A stretch of DNA of 43,022 nucleotides from an uncultured Bacilli bacterium. Its GTDB lineage: Bacteria; Bacillota_I; Bacilli_A; RF39; UBA660. The position numbers and the translations under genes were made by a program. Below are positions 6,738 through 35,227 of this stretch, in pieces; within the stretch, counting starts at the first letter, position 1, and each line of letters opens with the position of its first letter. The stretch covers positions 1-43,022 of the forward strand of contig CANQXQ010000002.1 of NCBI GenBank assembly GCA_947627845.1, written 5' to 3'. The notes below the pieces were generated by a model. It ran no database searches. It was not told the DNA's origin and saw only the letters and a list, made by a program, of their open reading frames with translations.

Positions 6738-7067
6738 ATGATGTATAGCGATAAGATTTACTTAACACCTCAAGAGATATTAGATAAGGAGTTTAAGATT
6801 GATGCTAGGGGTTATCGTCCACAAGAAGTAGATAAATACCTAGATATGGTTATACGTGATTATACCGAATTTATAAGCATCATAAAAAGAAATGAAAAGG
6901 AAATAAAAGACTTAACTGATGATAATGCTAAACTTAAAGCGGAAATTCGCTCTTTAAGAGAACAACTTGTAGCTAGTGAATCATCAGGAGGAAGTGGTAC
7001 TTCAAATGTTGATTTATTAAAAAGAATAAGTCAATTAGAAAAAGTTGTATTTGGAAAATATGAATAA
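6738..7067 (+). CDS. gpsB: Cell-cycle protein GpsB (DivIVA-domain)
   Basis: ILDKEFKIDARGYRPQEVDKYLD is the DivIVA/GpsB N-terminal motif, followed by a coiled coil. SD AAGGAAGTG precedes ATG 6738. rnpB lies immediately downstream, as I recall for Bacillus. Confidence 0.85.
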   Translation: MMYSDKIYLTPQEILDKEFKIDARGYRPQEVDKYLDMVIRDYTEFISIIKRNEKEIKDLTDDNAKLKAEIRSLREQLVASESSGGSGTSNVDLLKRISQLEKVVFGKYE

Positions 7068-7417
7068 TATCACGACAAATGCTGCATAAATATTATGTAG
7101 AGGAAAGTCCATGCTCACAAAGTCTGCGATTGACTTTAGTGTTCGTGCTTAAGGAAAAAATAACTTAAGGTAGCTTTTAGCTAACGGCAATGAAATATTC
7201 TAAAAGGAAACTCAAGAATAGAGTAGTTATAAAGTGCCATAGTAACGTACAAACTGGAAACGGTGGAAATGGAACGCGGTAAACCCCACGAGTGAGAAAT
7301 CCAAATTTTGGTCGGAGAACTCTTACAAAAGAATTAAATGGCGTAAGGGCCTAGTTTACTAGGAGATAAATATTTGTCGCCCGATAAGGGTTACAGAACA
7401 TGGCTTATGCGATATTA
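7066..7417 (+). ncRNA. rnpB: RNase P RNA, Bacillus-like type B
   Basis: Universal GAGGAAAGTCCATGCTC near the 5' end, and ACAGAACATGGCTTA near the 3' end. P1 pairing of AATATC(AC) at 7066 with GCGATATT at 7409-7416. The stretch is locally GC-enriched and non-coding. Confidence 0.85.
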
Positions 7418-24277: not shown

Positions 24278-25258
24278 ATGGCCGTTGTTTCTATGAGTTA
24301 TTTATTAGAAGCAGGAGTTCATTTTGGACATCAAACAAAAAGATGGAATCCTAAAATGAAAGAGTATATTTTTGGAGCAAGAGAAGATATTTATATTATC
24401 GATCTTGAAAAAACAACTAAAAAAATGGAGGAAGCCTACGAAGCAATTAAAATGATCGCTGATAATGGTGGAACATTCTTATTTGTAGGTACTAAAAAGC
24501 AAGCCCAAGATGCTGCGAAAGAAGAAGCTTTAAGAAGTAATTCTTATTATGTAACTGAAAGATGGTTAGGAGGAACCTTAACTAATTTTAGAACTATTAG
24601 AAGAAGAGTTAAACGCCTTGAAGAAATTGAAAATATGGAAAAAGATGGTAGATTTGAAGTTTTACCTAAAAAAGAAGTTATTGGTCTTCGTAAAGAATAT
24701 GATAAGTTAAATAAAATTTTAGCTGGTATTCGGGAAATGAGTAAACTACCAAATGCTTTAATTATCGTTGATCCTAAAAAAGAAATTAATGCTATAAGAG
24801 AAGCTCGTAAATTACGTATTCCGGTTTTTGGTTTAGTTGATACTAACTGTGATCCTGATGATGTAGATTATGTTATTCCTGGCAATGATGATGCTGTAAG
24901 AAGTGTTAAAGTTGTTTTAGGAGTTTTAACTAATGCTATTTGTGAATCACGTGGTTTAGAAATGGTTGATTATGTTACTGAAGAAGATAAAAAATCTAAA
25001 AGTGAACCAAAAACTATGGATGAGTTAATTAAGGAAGAACCAAAAGAATTAAAAAAATCTGATTTTGAGGATGAAGAACCAAGAAAAGAAGAAAAACCTC
25101 ATAAAGAAAAAAAAGTTGTTGAACCCAAAAAAGAAAAAAAAGTAGAAGTTAATTATGATGATATGACTTTAGCTGAACTTAAAAATGTGGCTAAAGAAAA
25201 AGGCATCAAAGGTTATTCTACAATGAAAAAAGAAGATTTAATTAAAAATTTAAAATAA
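24278..25258 (+). CDS. rpsB: 30S ribosomal protein S2 with a roughly 90-aa C-terminal extension
   Basis: Canonical S2 core ([19 protein letters not shown]) through about aa 235. A Lys/Glu-rich linker and a terminal HeH-like module follow. Confidence 0.95.
25163..25258 (+). repeat. Copy 1 of a 96-nt module encoding [31 protein letters not shown] (Rho_N/HeH-like)
   Basis: By hand alignment, about 85 of 96 nt are identical to 34535-34630, including the stop codon. Confidence 0.85.
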
Positions 25259-25273
25259 ATGGAGGAAAGAAAT

Positions 25274-26152
25274 ATGTTAGTTACAGCAAGTATGGTAAAA
25301 GACCTACGTGAAGCAACTGGGGCTGGAATGATGGATTGCAAAAACGCCTTAAATGCAACTGATGGTAATATGGATGCTGCAATCGATTGGTTAAGAGAAA
25401 AAGGTATTGCTAAAAGTGCTAAAAAAGAATCAAGAATTGCCGCGGAAGGTTTAGCTAATATTTTTATTAAAGATAATCGCGCAGTTATTTTAGAAGTTAA
25501 TAGTGAAACTGATTTTGTAAGTAAAAATGCCGAATTTACCAGTATGATAGACACAATTGGTAATACTATTTTAAATAGTAATGTCTCTACTTTAGAAGAT
25601 GCCTTAAAACTTCCAACTGAAAATGGTACTATTAATGATTTAATTATAGCTAAAACCGCTAAAATTGGTGAAAAACTATCTTTAAGAAGAATTGAAGTAG
25701 TTGAAAAAAATGCGACTGAAAACTTTGGAGCTTATCTTCACATGGGTGGCAAAATTGCGGTTTTAAGTGTAGTTGAGGGAGCAAATAGTGATGTTGCAAA
25801 AGATGTATCTATGCAAGCTGCCGCTATGCGTCCGGAATATGTCTTTATTGAAGATGTTCCTGAAGAAATTGTCGAAAAAGAAAAAGCAGTTCAAAAAGAA
25901 TTAGCTATGTCCGAGGGTAAACCGGCTGATATTGCTGAAAAAATGGTTGAAGGTCGAATTAAAAAATATTTTAAGGAAATCTGTTTAGCTGAACAAGAAT
26001 TTATTAAAGATGGTGATATTTCGGTTGCCACTTATGTTAAAAATAATCATGGAACTATCAAGAAAGTTATTCGTTATGAAGTAGGCGAAGGAATGGAAAA
26101 AAGAAATGAAAACTTTGCTGAAGAAGTAATGAATCAAATTAAAGAAAGCTAG
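25274..26152 (+). CDS. tsf: Elongation factor Ts
   Basis: MLVTASMVKDLREATGAGMMDCKNAL UBA-like N-terminus. ATG 25274 follows GGAGG; the track's start at 25259 contains the SD. Confidence 0.95.
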   Translation: MLVTASMVKDLREATGAGMMDCKNALNATDGNMDAAIDWLREKGIAKSAKKESRIAAEGLANIFIKDNRAVILEVNSETDFVSKNAEFTSMIDTIGNTILNSNVSTLEDALKLPTENGTINDLIIAKTAKIGEKLSLRRIEVVEKNATENFGAYLHMGGKIAVLSVVEGANSDVAKDVSMQAAAMRPEYVFIEDVPEEIVEKEKAVQKELAMSEGKPADIAEKMVEGRIKKYFKEICLAEQEFIKDGDISVATYVKNNHGTIKKVIRYEVGEGMEKRNENFAEEVMNQIKES

Positions 26153-26254: not shown

Positions 26255-26845
26255 ATGAATAAAACAATAAAAAAGGTTATTGAAGGCTTATTATTTGTTG
26301 CCATAATTGTAGCTTTTATAATTATTGGTAAAACTGATTTTAGTCCTAAAAAACCTATCGATAACGAAAAATTTGATCATGATTATACTAATGTTAGTGC
26401 TGATAATGTTTATAAATATGTTAATTCTAATGAAGTTTATTCTTTTCTCCGGAGTGGTACAGGTGTATTATTTTTAGGTTATCCAACCAATAAATGGACT
26501 GGTTATTATGCTAGTATTTTAAATGATGCGGCTCAAGAATTAGGCTTAAAAGAAATTTTATATTATGATTTTTATGAAGATAAAGCGGTTAAAAATGCTA
26601 CATATCAAAGTTTAGTTTTAAAACTCAATAATTTTCTTCCTACTTTAGATGATGGCACTCAAAACTTACAAGCACCTAGTATGATAATTGTAAAAGAGGG
26701 CACAATTATTTATTATGATGATGAAACCTCCATTAATCGCGGAACTATAACTCCTACCGAATATTGGAATGAATTTAAAATAAAATCCAAACAAGAAAGT
26801 TTAAAAGAAATATTAGCTAATAATTTAAATACTTTAGCCAATTAA
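26255..26845 (+). CDS. Membrane-anchored hypothetical protein, possibly thioredoxin-fold without CxxC
   Basis: N-terminal TM anchor. The pattern VLFLGYPTNKWTGYYASILNDAA sits where thioredoxin-like proteins carry WCxxC, and no cysteines are present. Confidence 0.4.
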   Translation: MNKTIKKVIEGLLFVAIIVAFIIIGKTDFSPKKPIDNEKFDHDYTNVSADNVYKYVNSNEVYSFLRSGTGVLFLGYPTNKWTGYYASILNDAAQELGLKEILYYDFYEDKAVKNATYQSLVLKLNNFLPTLDDGTQNLQAPSMIIVKEGTIIYYDDETSINRGTITPTEYWNEFKIKSKQESLKEILANNLNTLAN

Positions 26846-34084: not shown

Positions 34085-34630
34085 ATGACAAGAGTTAAAG
34101 GTGGAACTGTTTCCAAAACAAGAAGAAGAAAAGTATTAAAAGAAGCTAAAGGTTACTTTGGTAGTAAACATAGATTATATAAAACAGCTCAAGAACAAGT
34201 ATTCCATAGTGGAGCTTATGCCTACCGTGATCGTAAAGCTAATAAAAGAAATTTCCGTAAATTATGGATTACCAGAATTAATGCCGCTTGCCGAGCTAAT
34301 GATATTAGCTATTCTAAATTTATGAATGGTTTATCAAAAGCTGGTGTGGAAATTAATCGTAAAGTATTAAGTGAAATGGCTATTAATGATGCTCAAGGAT
34401 TTGCTAATCTAGTTAAAATTAGTAAAGATGCCTTAAATGGTAAAGCTACTAAACCTGCTAAAGATACTGCCAAAAAAGAAGAACAAGTAGCCCCTAAAGC
34501 TGTTAAAGAAACTAAAAAAGTTGATTATAGCACAATGACTTTAACTGAACTTAAAAATGTTGCTAAAGAACAAGGCATTAAAGGCTATTCAACTATGAAA
34601 AAAGAAGAATTATTAAATAATTTAAAATAA
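34085..34630 (+). CDS. rplT: 50S ribosomal protein L20 with a roughly 60-aa C-terminal extension
   Basis: Canonical L20 core ([26 protein letters not shown]) to about aa 118. A Lys/Ala-rich linker and the same HeH-like module found on S2 follow. Confidence 0.95.
34535..34630 (+). repeat. Copy 2 of the 96-nt module, encoding [31 protein letters not shown]
   Basis: About 85 of 96 nt are identical to 25163-25258 by hand alignment. Confidence 0.85.
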
Positions 34631-34699: not shown

Positions 34700-35227
34700 A
34701 TGAAAATATATTTAGTCGCCGGCAAATCCGGAAGTGGCAAAAATGAAGTTGCCCAAATTATCAAAAAATATTACACCTCTTTTGGTAAAAGAGTTTTAAT
34801 AACCGAATTTAGTAAATATTTAAAATTATATGCTAAAGAAGTTTTAAATTGGCAAGAAAATGAACCAAAACCACGGCGTTTTTTACAAGATATAGGTGTA
34901 ACTATTAGAGAAAATATGGAAATGCCCTTAATGTTAATTAATAGAATGATGGAAGATTTAAAAATTTATGAATTATATTTTGATGTGGTAATTATAAGTG
35001 ATGTTCGTCTTCCTGAAGAAATAGAAGAATTTAAGAAAAAATATAGCGATTGCACATCTATTTATGTCATCAATCAATTTGCCGCTAGTAAATTAACTTT
35101 AAAAGAACAAATGCATATTACTGAAACAGCTTTAGAAGACTATAATAACTTTGATTTAACGATTACTAATGATAGTTTAGAAACCCTAGAACCTAAAGTT
35201 ATTAACTATTTAGAAGGAGTAAATTAA
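34700..35227 (+). CDS. Deoxynucleotide monophosphate kinase family protein (phage T4 gp1-like)
   Basis: P-loop GKSGSGKN, with a non-S/T residue after the Lys as in T4 gp1 (GKD). RRFLQDIG, ISDVRLPEE and the C-terminal HITETAL...DLTITNDSLETL closely parallel my memory of T4 gp1 HITEAGL...DLVITNDGSLEEL. Confidence 0.6.
   Translation: MKIYLVAGKSGSGKNEVAQIIKKYYTSFGKRVLITEFSKYLKLYAKEVLNWQENEPKPRRFLQDIGVTIRENMEMPLMLINRMMEDLKIYELYFDVVIISDVRLPEEIEEFKKKYSDCTSIYVINQFAASKLTLKEQMHITETALEDYNNFDLTITNDSLETLEPKVINYLEGVN

What the first reader, a model, noticed from the sequence alone, without database searches (positions are those of the whole stretch)
24980..25258. Ribosomal protein S2 carries a charged linker and a C-terminal Rho_N/HeH-like module
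S2 is 326 aa here, whereas typical S2 proteins are about 235-260 aa from memory. After the conserved core comes a roughly 60-aa Lys/Glu/Pro-rich linker. It ends in [31 protein letters not shown], which fits the helix-extension-helix pattern of the Rho N-terminal/SAP-like motif (L.ELK..AKE.GI.GYS...K.ELI). That motif binds nucleic acid in other contexts. A tethered HeH motif on the solvent side of the 30S subunit could contact mRNA, DNA or a partner protein.
Basis: partly seen in the sequence, partly recalled or inferred. Interest (0 to 1): 0.6.

Follow-up and report, generated by a model that had tools for sequence, protein, structure and literature searches.

The report
S2 with tethered Rho-N/HeH tail
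Ribosomal protein S2 of this small-genome gut bacterium really ends in a floppy charged leash carrying a small two-helix module of a nucleic-acid-binding type, and the same module also ends ribosomal protein L20 and the membrane protease FtsH; databases already record the design, but nobody has tested what it does.

Summary
rpsB (24278-25258, +) encodes 326 aa: an S2 core, a 66-aa K/E-rich linker predicted to be disordered, and a 32-aa C-terminal module. The module passes Pfam Rho_N (37.3 bits, cut-off 24.9) and folds as helix-extension-helix.

It is not an assembly error. Contigs from three studies reproduce it, and all 120 best homologs carry both domains.

In this genome the only other Rho_N matches are the C-termini of L20 (window 34085-34630) and FtsH. 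No Rho RNA-binding domain was found.

The S2 tail occurs in at least 39 of 150 sampled genomes of the class, in 8 of 27 families. One carrier is the cultured Paracholeplasma vituli. The FtsH tail is mainly a trait of this family.

The likeliest role is a tethered, low-specificity nucleic-acid anchor; whether it binds RNA or DNA is open. Substitution for ribosomal protein S1 is not supported.

This scan has found the S2/L20 tails before on other DNA. The L20 form is curated as NCBIfam NF011109. The FtsH carrier, the Rho and S1 tests and the tree are what this report adds. It is a real, catalogued feature of unstudied function.

The parts
24278..25258 (+). rpsB coding sequence: 326 aa plus a TAA stop
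   Evidence: ORF. TIGR01011 scores 334.5 bits. PF00318 scores 322.4 bits.
24278..24961 (+). S2 core, residues 1-228
   Evidence: Pfam Ribosomal_S2 covers residues 9-223. pLDDT is mostly 80-97. The core is conserved across 22 S2 proteins.
24962..25159 (+). Charged linker, residues 229-294. It begins with a short conserved stretch (about residues 231-255), followed by a part that varies in length.
   Evidence: K+E+P+D make up 67% of residues, net charge -4. pLDDT is below 50 at 239-245 and 252-289. The length and sequence of this part vary widely among 22 aligned S2 proteins.
25160..25255 (+). C-terminal Rho_N-type helix-extension-helix module, residues 295-326
   Evidence: Rho_N scores 37.3 bits in the whole protein and 41.5 bits alone, against a cut-off of 24.9. 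The genome search places the match at 25160-25249. Predicted helices are at 298-307 and 318-325. L301, A305, K306 and K318 are invariant in the tail alignments.
34085..34630 (+). rplT coding sequence: L20, 181 aa, carrying the same module on its own linker
   Evidence: Ribosomal_L20 covers residues 3-109 and Rho_N covers 149-178 at 37.2 bits. NF011109 scores 167.1 bits, below its cut-off of 187.
34518..34630 (+). DNA of the L20 tail, a direct repeat of the S2 tail DNA at 25146-25258
   Evidence: 113 nt at 84% identity, 9372 nt apart.

Best explanation
The S2 tail is a small, basic Rho-N/SAP-type helix-extension-helix (HeH) domain. It hangs from the solvent side of the 30S subunit on a disordered polyampholyte leash of about 40-65 residues.

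The same module hangs from L20 on the 50S subunit and, in this family, from the cytoplasmic end of the membrane protease FtsH.

I read it as a low-specificity nucleic-acid anchor that binds the sugar-phosphate backbone through the invariant lysines flanking the extended segment. It would keep ribosomal subunits, and here also FtsH, close to a shared polymer: either mRNA/rRNA or the AT-rich nucleoid.

Shown here: the domain's identity, its fold class, the disordered tether, its conservation, its three carriers, and the lack of Rho in this genome. Inferred: that it binds nucleic acid, and which one. My split within this reading is roughly even between RNA and DNA.
For: Domain identity rests on three results:
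- Pfam Rho_N passes its cut-off on S2, L20 and FtsH.
- A profile of 60 tails hits the N-termini of solved Rho proteins (E 1.3e-7 to 1.8e-4) and the Ku70 SAP DNA-binding domain (E 7e-4).
- The best structural matches are the Rho RNA-binding domain 1a62 (Z 5.0, rmsd 1.7 A over 38 residues), then SAP and LEM domains. Foldseek's top hit is 1a8v (probability 0.90).

The only tested stand-alone C-terminal Rho-N motif known to me is the last 40 aa of Arabidopsis RHON1. It also follows a charged stretch, and it binds RNA, including 16S and 23S fragments, in gel shifts (PMC3458557, passages read).

Partner domains among the 141 strongest-scoring module-bearing proteins scanned include HNH (2 proteins), HMG box (1), T5orf172 (2) and a DNA-ligase N-domain (1).

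The tail is basic (+3), and two lysines are invariant across 60 tails.

The linker varies in length and sequence while the tail is conserved, as expected for a tether.

Conservation:
- S2 tail in 23 of 25 genomes of the genus; L20 tail in 22 of 25.
- An FtsH-sized frame with Rho_N in 21 of 25.
- S2 tail in at least 39 of 150 genomes of the class.
Against: No binding was tested.

From memory, RNA in solved Rho complexes contacts the OB-fold part, not the N-terminal helices.

HeH/SAP-fold domains also bind proteins. LEM-BAF (7ndy), the SAP-like C-terminal domains of MANF and CDNF bound to BiP (6h9u, 9i5y) and SLX4 SAP-MUS81 (7bu5) all appear among the fold matches.

All fold scores are below the level at which such short helical matches can be trusted, and Foldseek gave no hit with E <= 0.001.

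The module matches only Pfam positions 4-31 of 43, so the third helix of the Rho bundle is missing.

FtsH is not a nucleic-acid machine.

The carriers are not strictly linked. Some genomes have the S2 tail but a plain L20 (G041, G054, G119, G141). Others have the L20 tail but a plain S2 (G027, G034, G037).
Confidence: 0.55

Rival explanations
1. Protein-docking or self-association tag. The module on S2, L20 and FtsH binds one shared protein partner or binds itself. This would cluster ribosomes, or bring them to FtsH hexamers at the membrane for co-translational quality control.
For: Solved HeH-fold relatives that bind proteins are among the fold matches: LEM-BAF, the SAP-like C-terminal domains of MANF and CDNF with BiP, and SLX4-MUS81. 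Full-length RHON1 dimerises in BiFC, though this was not mapped to the motif (PMC3458557). The presence of the same tag on three abundant machines, one of them a membrane protease, suits a shared address label.
Against: No partner was identified. In the tree the FtsH tails form their own old clade (11 of 12 together, support 95/94) apart from the intermixed S2/L20 tails, so the three are not kept identical. The census of carriers is rich in DNA enzymes. Self-association could not be tested because the complex prediction never ran.
Confidence: 0.17
2. Ribosome-internal structural element. The tail folds back and binds the ribosome's own rRNA, as many ribosomal protein extensions do, compensating for losses in a reduced genome.
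For: The RHON1 Rho-N motif binds rRNA fragments in vitro. The genomes are small: 0.98 Mb here. Long S2 C-terminal extensions are common in the class.
Against: The linker is predicted to be disordered and varies widely in length and sequence between relatives, which does not suit a fixed docking site. The same module on FtsH cannot serve this purpose. An analogous tethered C-terminal domain on Cutibacterium acnes uL4 is disordered in cryo-EM (PMC12353581, passages read).
Confidence: 0.1
3. Stand-in for ribosomal protein S1. Tethered to S2, which docks S1 in E. coli (recalled), the module captures mRNA leaders in lineages that lack S1.
For: No multi-domain S1 protein was found in this genome or in any of the 14 sampled genomes of its family. 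Only single S1-domain hits appear, with E 1e-12 to 1e-20.
Against: Of the 8 families with the S2 tail, 5 (f13, f16, f19, f20, f26) have a multi-domain S1 homolog (E 1e-50 to 1e-79). Several families without S1 (f5, f8, f12, f22, f23, f25, f27) have no S2 HeH tail. L20 and FtsH carry the same module.
Confidence: 0.05
4. Neutral or nearly neutral appendage: a mobile mini-domain copied onto the ends of genes, with no dedicated role.
For: The module is very promiscuous: 13346 cluster representatives match at E <= 0.001, often with tandem copies. Carriers differ between lineages.
Against: The tail stays conserved while the adjacent linker diverges freely. It is kept in 23 of 25 genomes of the genus and in 8 families of the class, all in strongly reduced genomes.
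Confidence: 0.08

Closest known systems
N-terminal helix bundle of transcription termination factor Rho (Pfam Rho_N, PF07498; PDB 1a62, 1a8v, 7oqh)
   Same: It is the best sequence and fold match. It shares the same consensus (hydrophobic-x-x-L-K/R ... A-K ... G-Y-S-x-x-K-K-x-E-L-I) and the helix-extension-helix shape.
   Different: Only the first two helices are present (Pfam positions 4-31 of 43). The module is C-terminal and sits on a disordered leash. No OB-fold RNA-binding domain follows it, and none was found in the genome.
NCBIfam NF011109 / PRK14537, '50S ribosomal protein L20/unknown domain fusion protein'
   Same: The design is the same: a ribosomal protein, a charged spacer and the same terminal module. 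The S2 tail alone aligns to positions 174-224 of 232 of that model (E 1.5e-4).
   Different: That model is built on L20, not S2. The L20 in this window scores 167.1 bits, just under the cut-off of 187. No curated S2 counterpart matched.
RHON1 of Arabidopsis chloroplasts (C-terminal Rho-N motif)
   Same: A 40-aa Rho-N HeH motif sits at the very C-terminus after a highly charged stretch. It binds RNA, including rRNA fragments, in vitro (PMC3458557, passages read).
   Different: It is a eukaryotic organellar protein that partners RNase E, not a ribosomal protein. No direct sequence comparison with it was made here.
'Sunset' (ADA_N-like) domain variants of ribosomal proteins (NCBIfam NF051451 for S2, NF051450 for L20; uL4 of Cutibacterium acnes)
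   Same: The concept is the same: a small domain with a DNA-binding-type fold tethered to the C-terminus of ribosomal proteins, including the same two, S2 and L20. It is disordered on the solved ribosome and its function is unknown (PMC12353581, passages read).
   Different: The fold and family differ. S2 here scores 281.8 bits against a cut-off of 710, and L20 scores 141.8 against 375. None of 119 genomes of the phylum sample reached the L20 cut-off.
SAP / HeH / LEM domains of eukaryotic chromatin and nuclear-envelope proteins (Ku70, PIAS, Tho1, emerin, LAP2)
   Same: The fold class is the same and the sequence similarity is weak (Ku70 SAP, E 7e-4). These are tethering domains that hold large assemblies or membrane proteins on DNA (recalled).
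   Different: The Pfam SAP and HeH models score below their cut-offs (10.9-15.3 against 23.9; 13.8-16.6 against 28.9). The carriers here are bacterial.

Membership tests
Ribosomal protein uS2 (PF00318 / TIGR01011) | Score above the curated cut-off over the full core | tested here: met
   PF00318 scores 322.4 bits (cut-off 26.1) over profile positions 1-215 of 216. TIGR01011 scores 334.5 bits (cut-off 76.3).
Ribosomal protein uS2 (PF00318 / TIGR01011) | Canonical rpsB-tsf gene order | tested here: met
   An EF_TS gene starts 15 nt after the S2 stop codon.
Rho_N domain (PF07498) | Score above Pfam's gathering cut-off | tested here: met
   37.3 bits in the whole protein and 41.5 bits for the isolated tail, against a cut-off of 24.9. 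The genome search gives 40 bits.
Rho_N domain (PF07498) | Full three-helix bundle (43 profile positions) | tested here: not met
   Only positions 4-31 (up to 33) are matched, and the protein ends there. Two helices are predicted.
Rho_N domain (PF07498) | Helix-extension-helix fold like the Rho N-terminus | tested here: inconclusive
   The model has helix, extended segment, helix at pLDDT 85.8. The top matches are Rho 1a62 (Z 5.0) and 1a8v (probability 0.90), but Z is below 8 and Foldseek E is 0.65 for a 40-aa model.
Transcription termination factor Rho | OB-fold RNA-binding domain (PF07497) after Rho_N | tested here: not met
   No PF07497 match in this genome or in the 24 genus relatives. Only 2 of 41 genomes have one, and those are true Rho proteins in frames of 416 and 432 aa.
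SAP domain (PF02037) | Score above the cut-off | tested here: not met
   10.9 to 15.3 bits against a cut-off of 23.9.
HeH/LEM domain (PF12949) | Score above the cut-off | tested here: not met
   13.8 to 16.6 bits against a cut-off of 28.9.
NF051451, S2 sunset domain variant | Score above the cut-off, including the terminal sunset domain | tested here: not met
   281.8 bits against a cut-off of 710. Only profile positions 1-260 of 382 are matched.
NF011109, L20/unknown domain fusion protein (applies to the L20 in the window) | Score above the cut-off | tested here: not met
   167.1 bits against a cut-off of 187. The architecture is the same, and Pfam finds L20 plus Rho_N.
Nucleic-acid-binding HeH module (functional class) | Binds DNA or RNA | not testable with these tools
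   This rests only on analogy with RHON1 and with SAP domains (recalled).

The most novel reading that the evidence does not exclude
The HeH module is a shared address tag. In this family of Rho-less Bacilli with genomes near 1 Mb, it ties both ribosomal subunits and the membrane protease FtsH to one polymer, either the nucleoid or polysomal mRNA. That would physically couple chromosome, translation and membrane quality control. It would be a bacterial counterpart of eukaryotic HeH/LEM tethers, and it would have arisen convergently with the 'sunset' tails on S2 and L20 in other phyla.
Probability: 0.2. Interest if true: 0.7.

Novelty: new member of a known kind. Interest (0 to 1): 0.4.

Why it matters
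If the tails anchor ribosomes and FtsH to nucleic acid, they would be a simple, genetically encoded way to organise the cytoplasm of very small cells.

They would also add to a recurring theme that has not been studied. Different phyla attach different small domains of DNA/RNA-binding folds to the same ribosomal proteins, S2 and L20.

A cultured carrier, Paracholeplasma vituli, makes the question testable. As it stands, this is a conserved ribosome decoration that databases already record and whose function is unknown.

Tried and rejected
1. S1 substitute. The idea is attractive because this family shows no multi-domain S1, but 5 of the 8 families with the S2 tail have S1. Rejected as a general explanation.

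2. Link to loss of Rho. G027 has both a true Rho and an L20 tail, so there is no strict link.

3. Sunset-domain membership. Not met.

4. Recent gene conversion between the S2 and L20 tails in this genome. The longest identical DNA word is 16 nt, equal to the between-genome median. Own-pair identity is 0.83, which is not the highest. Not shown for this genome. Only G001 and G004 look recent.

5. FtsH tails outside the family, judged by how far the alignment reached. Fetching the sequences and scanning them showed that 0 of 5 had Rho_N, so that criterion was dropped.

6. Foldseek against the PDB gave no match with E <= 0.001.

7. Self-association of the tail. There is no result.

8. Expression. 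RNA runs held only 6% of the sampled words, and the one that was laid (X17) covered only the conserved 5' part of rpsB. This gives no evidence for or against transcription of the tail.

9. Slippage at the A7/A8 runs in the linker. Contigs show no indels, but contigs cannot show rare variants.

10. Literature. Eight full-text searches found no paper on S2, L20 or FtsH with Rho_N/HeH tails. The searches covered Rho_N with ribosomal protein; helix-extension-helix; Rho N-terminal domain with Mollicutes, L20 and uS2; SAP domain with L20; phytoplasma L20 fusion; sunset domain; ADA_N-like; and Rho N-terminal domain-containing protein.

Full report
**What is there**

The window holds an rpsB gene at 24278-25258 on the + strand.

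Pfam finds Ribosomal_S2 at residues 9-223 (322.4 bits). It finds Rho_N at residues 295-322 with 37.3 bits, above the curated cut-off of 24.9. The last 32 residues alone score 41.5 bits. The related SAP, HeH/LEM and Ish1 models give weaker hits below their cut-offs. NCBIfam names the protein S2 (TIGR01011, 334.5 bits).

Between core and tail lie 66 residues that are 26% Lys, 24% Glu, 9% Asp and 8% Pro.

An AlphaFold2 model built on 22 relatives has three parts:
- a confident S2 core;
- pLDDT below 50 for residues 239-245 and 252-289;
- a confident end (pLDDT 82-87) with helices at 298-307 and 318-325 joined by an extended segment.

The tail folded alone from a 60-sequence alignment gives the same helix-extension-helix at pLDDT 85.8.

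**It is not an artefact**

The TAA stop is followed 15 nt later by the likely tsf start, behind a GGAGG ribosome-binding site.

DNA contigs of three public runs from three studies cover linker, tail and stop without any insertion or deletion. One of these runs may be the source sample.

All 120 best database homologs, of 7999 scored, are 310-524 aa long (median 324) and carry both Pfam domains.

**What the module is related to**

A profile of 60 tails finds the first helices of solved Rho proteins: 7oqh at E 1.3e-7, 8hsj at 7e-5 and 3l0o at 1.8e-4. Next comes the SAP domain of Ku70 at 7e-4.

Structure searches put the Rho RNA-binding domain first. VIA-align gives 1a62 with Z 5.0 and rmsd 1.7 A over 38 residues. 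Foldseek gives 1a8v with probability 0.90 but E 0.65. SAP and LEM domains follow. For a 40-residue model none of these scores is decisive alone.

The module covers only positions 4-31 of the 43-position Pfam model. It is therefore the two-helix HeH core without the third helix of the Rho bundle.

**The same module elsewhere in the genome**

A search of the whole 0.98-Mb assembly (88 contigs, 92% complete) finds Rho_N three times only:
- the S2 tail;
- the end of L20 in the same window (34085-34630; 181 aa; L20 domain at 3-109, Rho_N at 149-178, 37.2 bits);
- the C-terminus of FtsH on another contig (27.3 bits).

No Rho RNA-binding domain was found in this genome or in 24 relatives of the genus. 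Two more distant genomes of the 41 searched have a true Rho. The module therefore exists here without Rho.

**Distribution**

Within the genus:
- the S2 tail is present in 23 of 25 genomes;
- the L20 tail is present in 22 of 25;
- a Rho_N match in an FtsH-sized frame is present in 21 of 25, of which 19 are over the cut-off.

In an even sample of 150 scored genomes from 27 families of the class:
- The S2 match runs to the end of the tail in 36.
- Three more tails were seen by reading the sequences (G131, G121, G040).
- The total is at least 39, in 8 families.

Other families of the class often have long charged S2 extensions without the module, giving proteins of 317-444 aa.

The FtsH tail is narrower:
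- Rho_N appears in 10 of 11 further genera of this family (8 above the cut-off).
- It appears in 0 of 5 genomes of other families that I fetched.
- adds one genome each of two other families.

The carriers are not strictly linked. Some genomes have a tailed S2 and a plain L20, and others the reverse.

Named carriers include uncultured Bacilli/Tenericutes gut MAGs, Clostridium sp. CAG:1193, Acholeplasma sp. CAG:878, an Acholeplasmataceae MAG and the cultured Paracholeplasma vituli (S2 323 aa, Rho_N 27.3 bits).

**How the tails evolve**

The S2 and L20 tail DNAs in this window are 84% identical over 113 nt.

Within the genus, same-genome S2/L20 pairs are only slightly more alike (0.788) than pairs from different genomes (0.761). 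S2 tails are no closer to each other (0.763) than to L20 tails. The longest identical word in this genome, 16 nt, equals the between-genome median. So there is no sign of recent copying here. Only G001 and G004 look recent.

Across families the picture is clearer:
- Same-genome pairs share 0.73 of a 29-residue core. S2 tails from different families share 0.63.
- In a tree of 69 tails the S2 and L20 tails are interleaved. Well-supported branches force at least 5 switches, and the G030 pair groups together at 100/82.
- In the same tree 11 of 12 FtsH tails form one clade at 95/94.

The tree has only 33 columns, so it is rough. I read it as an old, separate FtsH fusion plus occasional exchange between the S2 and L20 tails.

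**What it most likely does**

The module family is very large and promiscuous. 13346 cluster representatives match at E <= 0.001, and many carry tandem copies.

Of the 150 best, the 141 that I scanned all carry Rho_N, and many also match SAP or HeH. Their other domains include HNH nucleases, an HMG box, T5orf172, a DNA-ligase N-domain, kinases and phage proteins.

The one tested case that I could read of a stand-alone C-terminal Rho-N motif is the last 40 aa of chloroplast RHON1. It binds RNA, including rRNA fragments (PMC3458557, passages).

The tail here is basic, and two lysines are invariant in 60 sequences. I therefore favour a tethered nucleic-acid anchor with low specificity, at confidence 0.55. 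I cannot choose between RNA and DNA.

Protein binding is a serious rival, because several HeH-fold relatives bind proteins.

A role as substitute for ribosomal protein S1 fails on distribution. This family has no multi-domain S1, but five of the eight families with the tail do.

**Comparison with what is known**

The L20 version is curated by NCBI as NF011109, 'L20/unknown domain fusion protein'.

NCBIfam also has 'sunset domain' variants of the same two proteins, S2 and L20. The proteins here do not meet those models.

That other domain, seen on uL4 of Cutibacterium acnes, is disordered in cryo-EM and of unknown function (PMC12353581, passages).

Eight literature searches found no study of these tails.

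Earlier reports of this scan described the S2 and L20 tails on other genomes. None of the summaries I saw mentions FtsH.

**Verdict**

This is a real, conserved fusion of S2 with a Rho_N-type HeH module that databases already record. It is a new member of a known kind. Its function is open, and a cultured relative exists in which to test it.

Noticed in passing
G000 contig C16:16849-16947 (locus L003, 1480-1599): FtsH (AAA + Peptidase_M41) ends in the same Rho_N-type module (27.3 bits). The trait holds in 10 of 11 other genera of the family that I checked, and in 0 of 5 genomes of other families.
   Followed up: yes
L041:1047-1919 (-), genome G008: A 291-aa protein has no clear family (weak Peptidase_S26 and FtsH_ext hits) but ends in the same tail (Rho_N 35.2 bits). 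It is a fourth carrier in one relative.
   Followed up: partly
window 25256-25276: The ORF finder starts tsf at the ATG at 25259, directly after the S2 stop. A GGAGG at 25261-25265 and an ATG at 25274 fit the usual EF-Ts N-terminus better.
   Followed up: partly
window 26255-26845 (+): A 196-aa ORF with a hydrophobic N-terminus and no Pfam family lies between tsf and frr, where pyrH often sits. An earlier report of this scan described a similar layout in another genome.
   Followed up: partly
window 25051, 25107, 25134: The linker's coding DNA contains runs of A7, A8 and A8. Slippage there would yield tail-less S2. Contigs of three runs show no indels, but contigs cannot show rare variants.
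   Followed up: partly
loci L065, L068, L071-L076 (S2 of other families of the class): S2 proteins of 317-444 aa have long K/E/R/P-rich C-terminal extensions, some of them repetitive, with no HeH module. The C-terminus of S2 is a hot spot for extension across the class.
   Followed up: partly
proteins P0121, P0122: Proteins of 569 and 792 aa have hydrophobic segments, long acidic tracts and 6-8 tandem copies of the module. They look like membrane-anchored multi-HeH tethers.
   Followed up: no
window 7067-7412 (+): RNase P RNA, bacterial class B (263.8 bits).
   Followed up: no
window 34700-35227 (+): A 175-aa P-loop protein directly after rplT matches a deoxynucleotide monophosphate kinase family (DNMK, 36.3 bits).
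   Followed up: no
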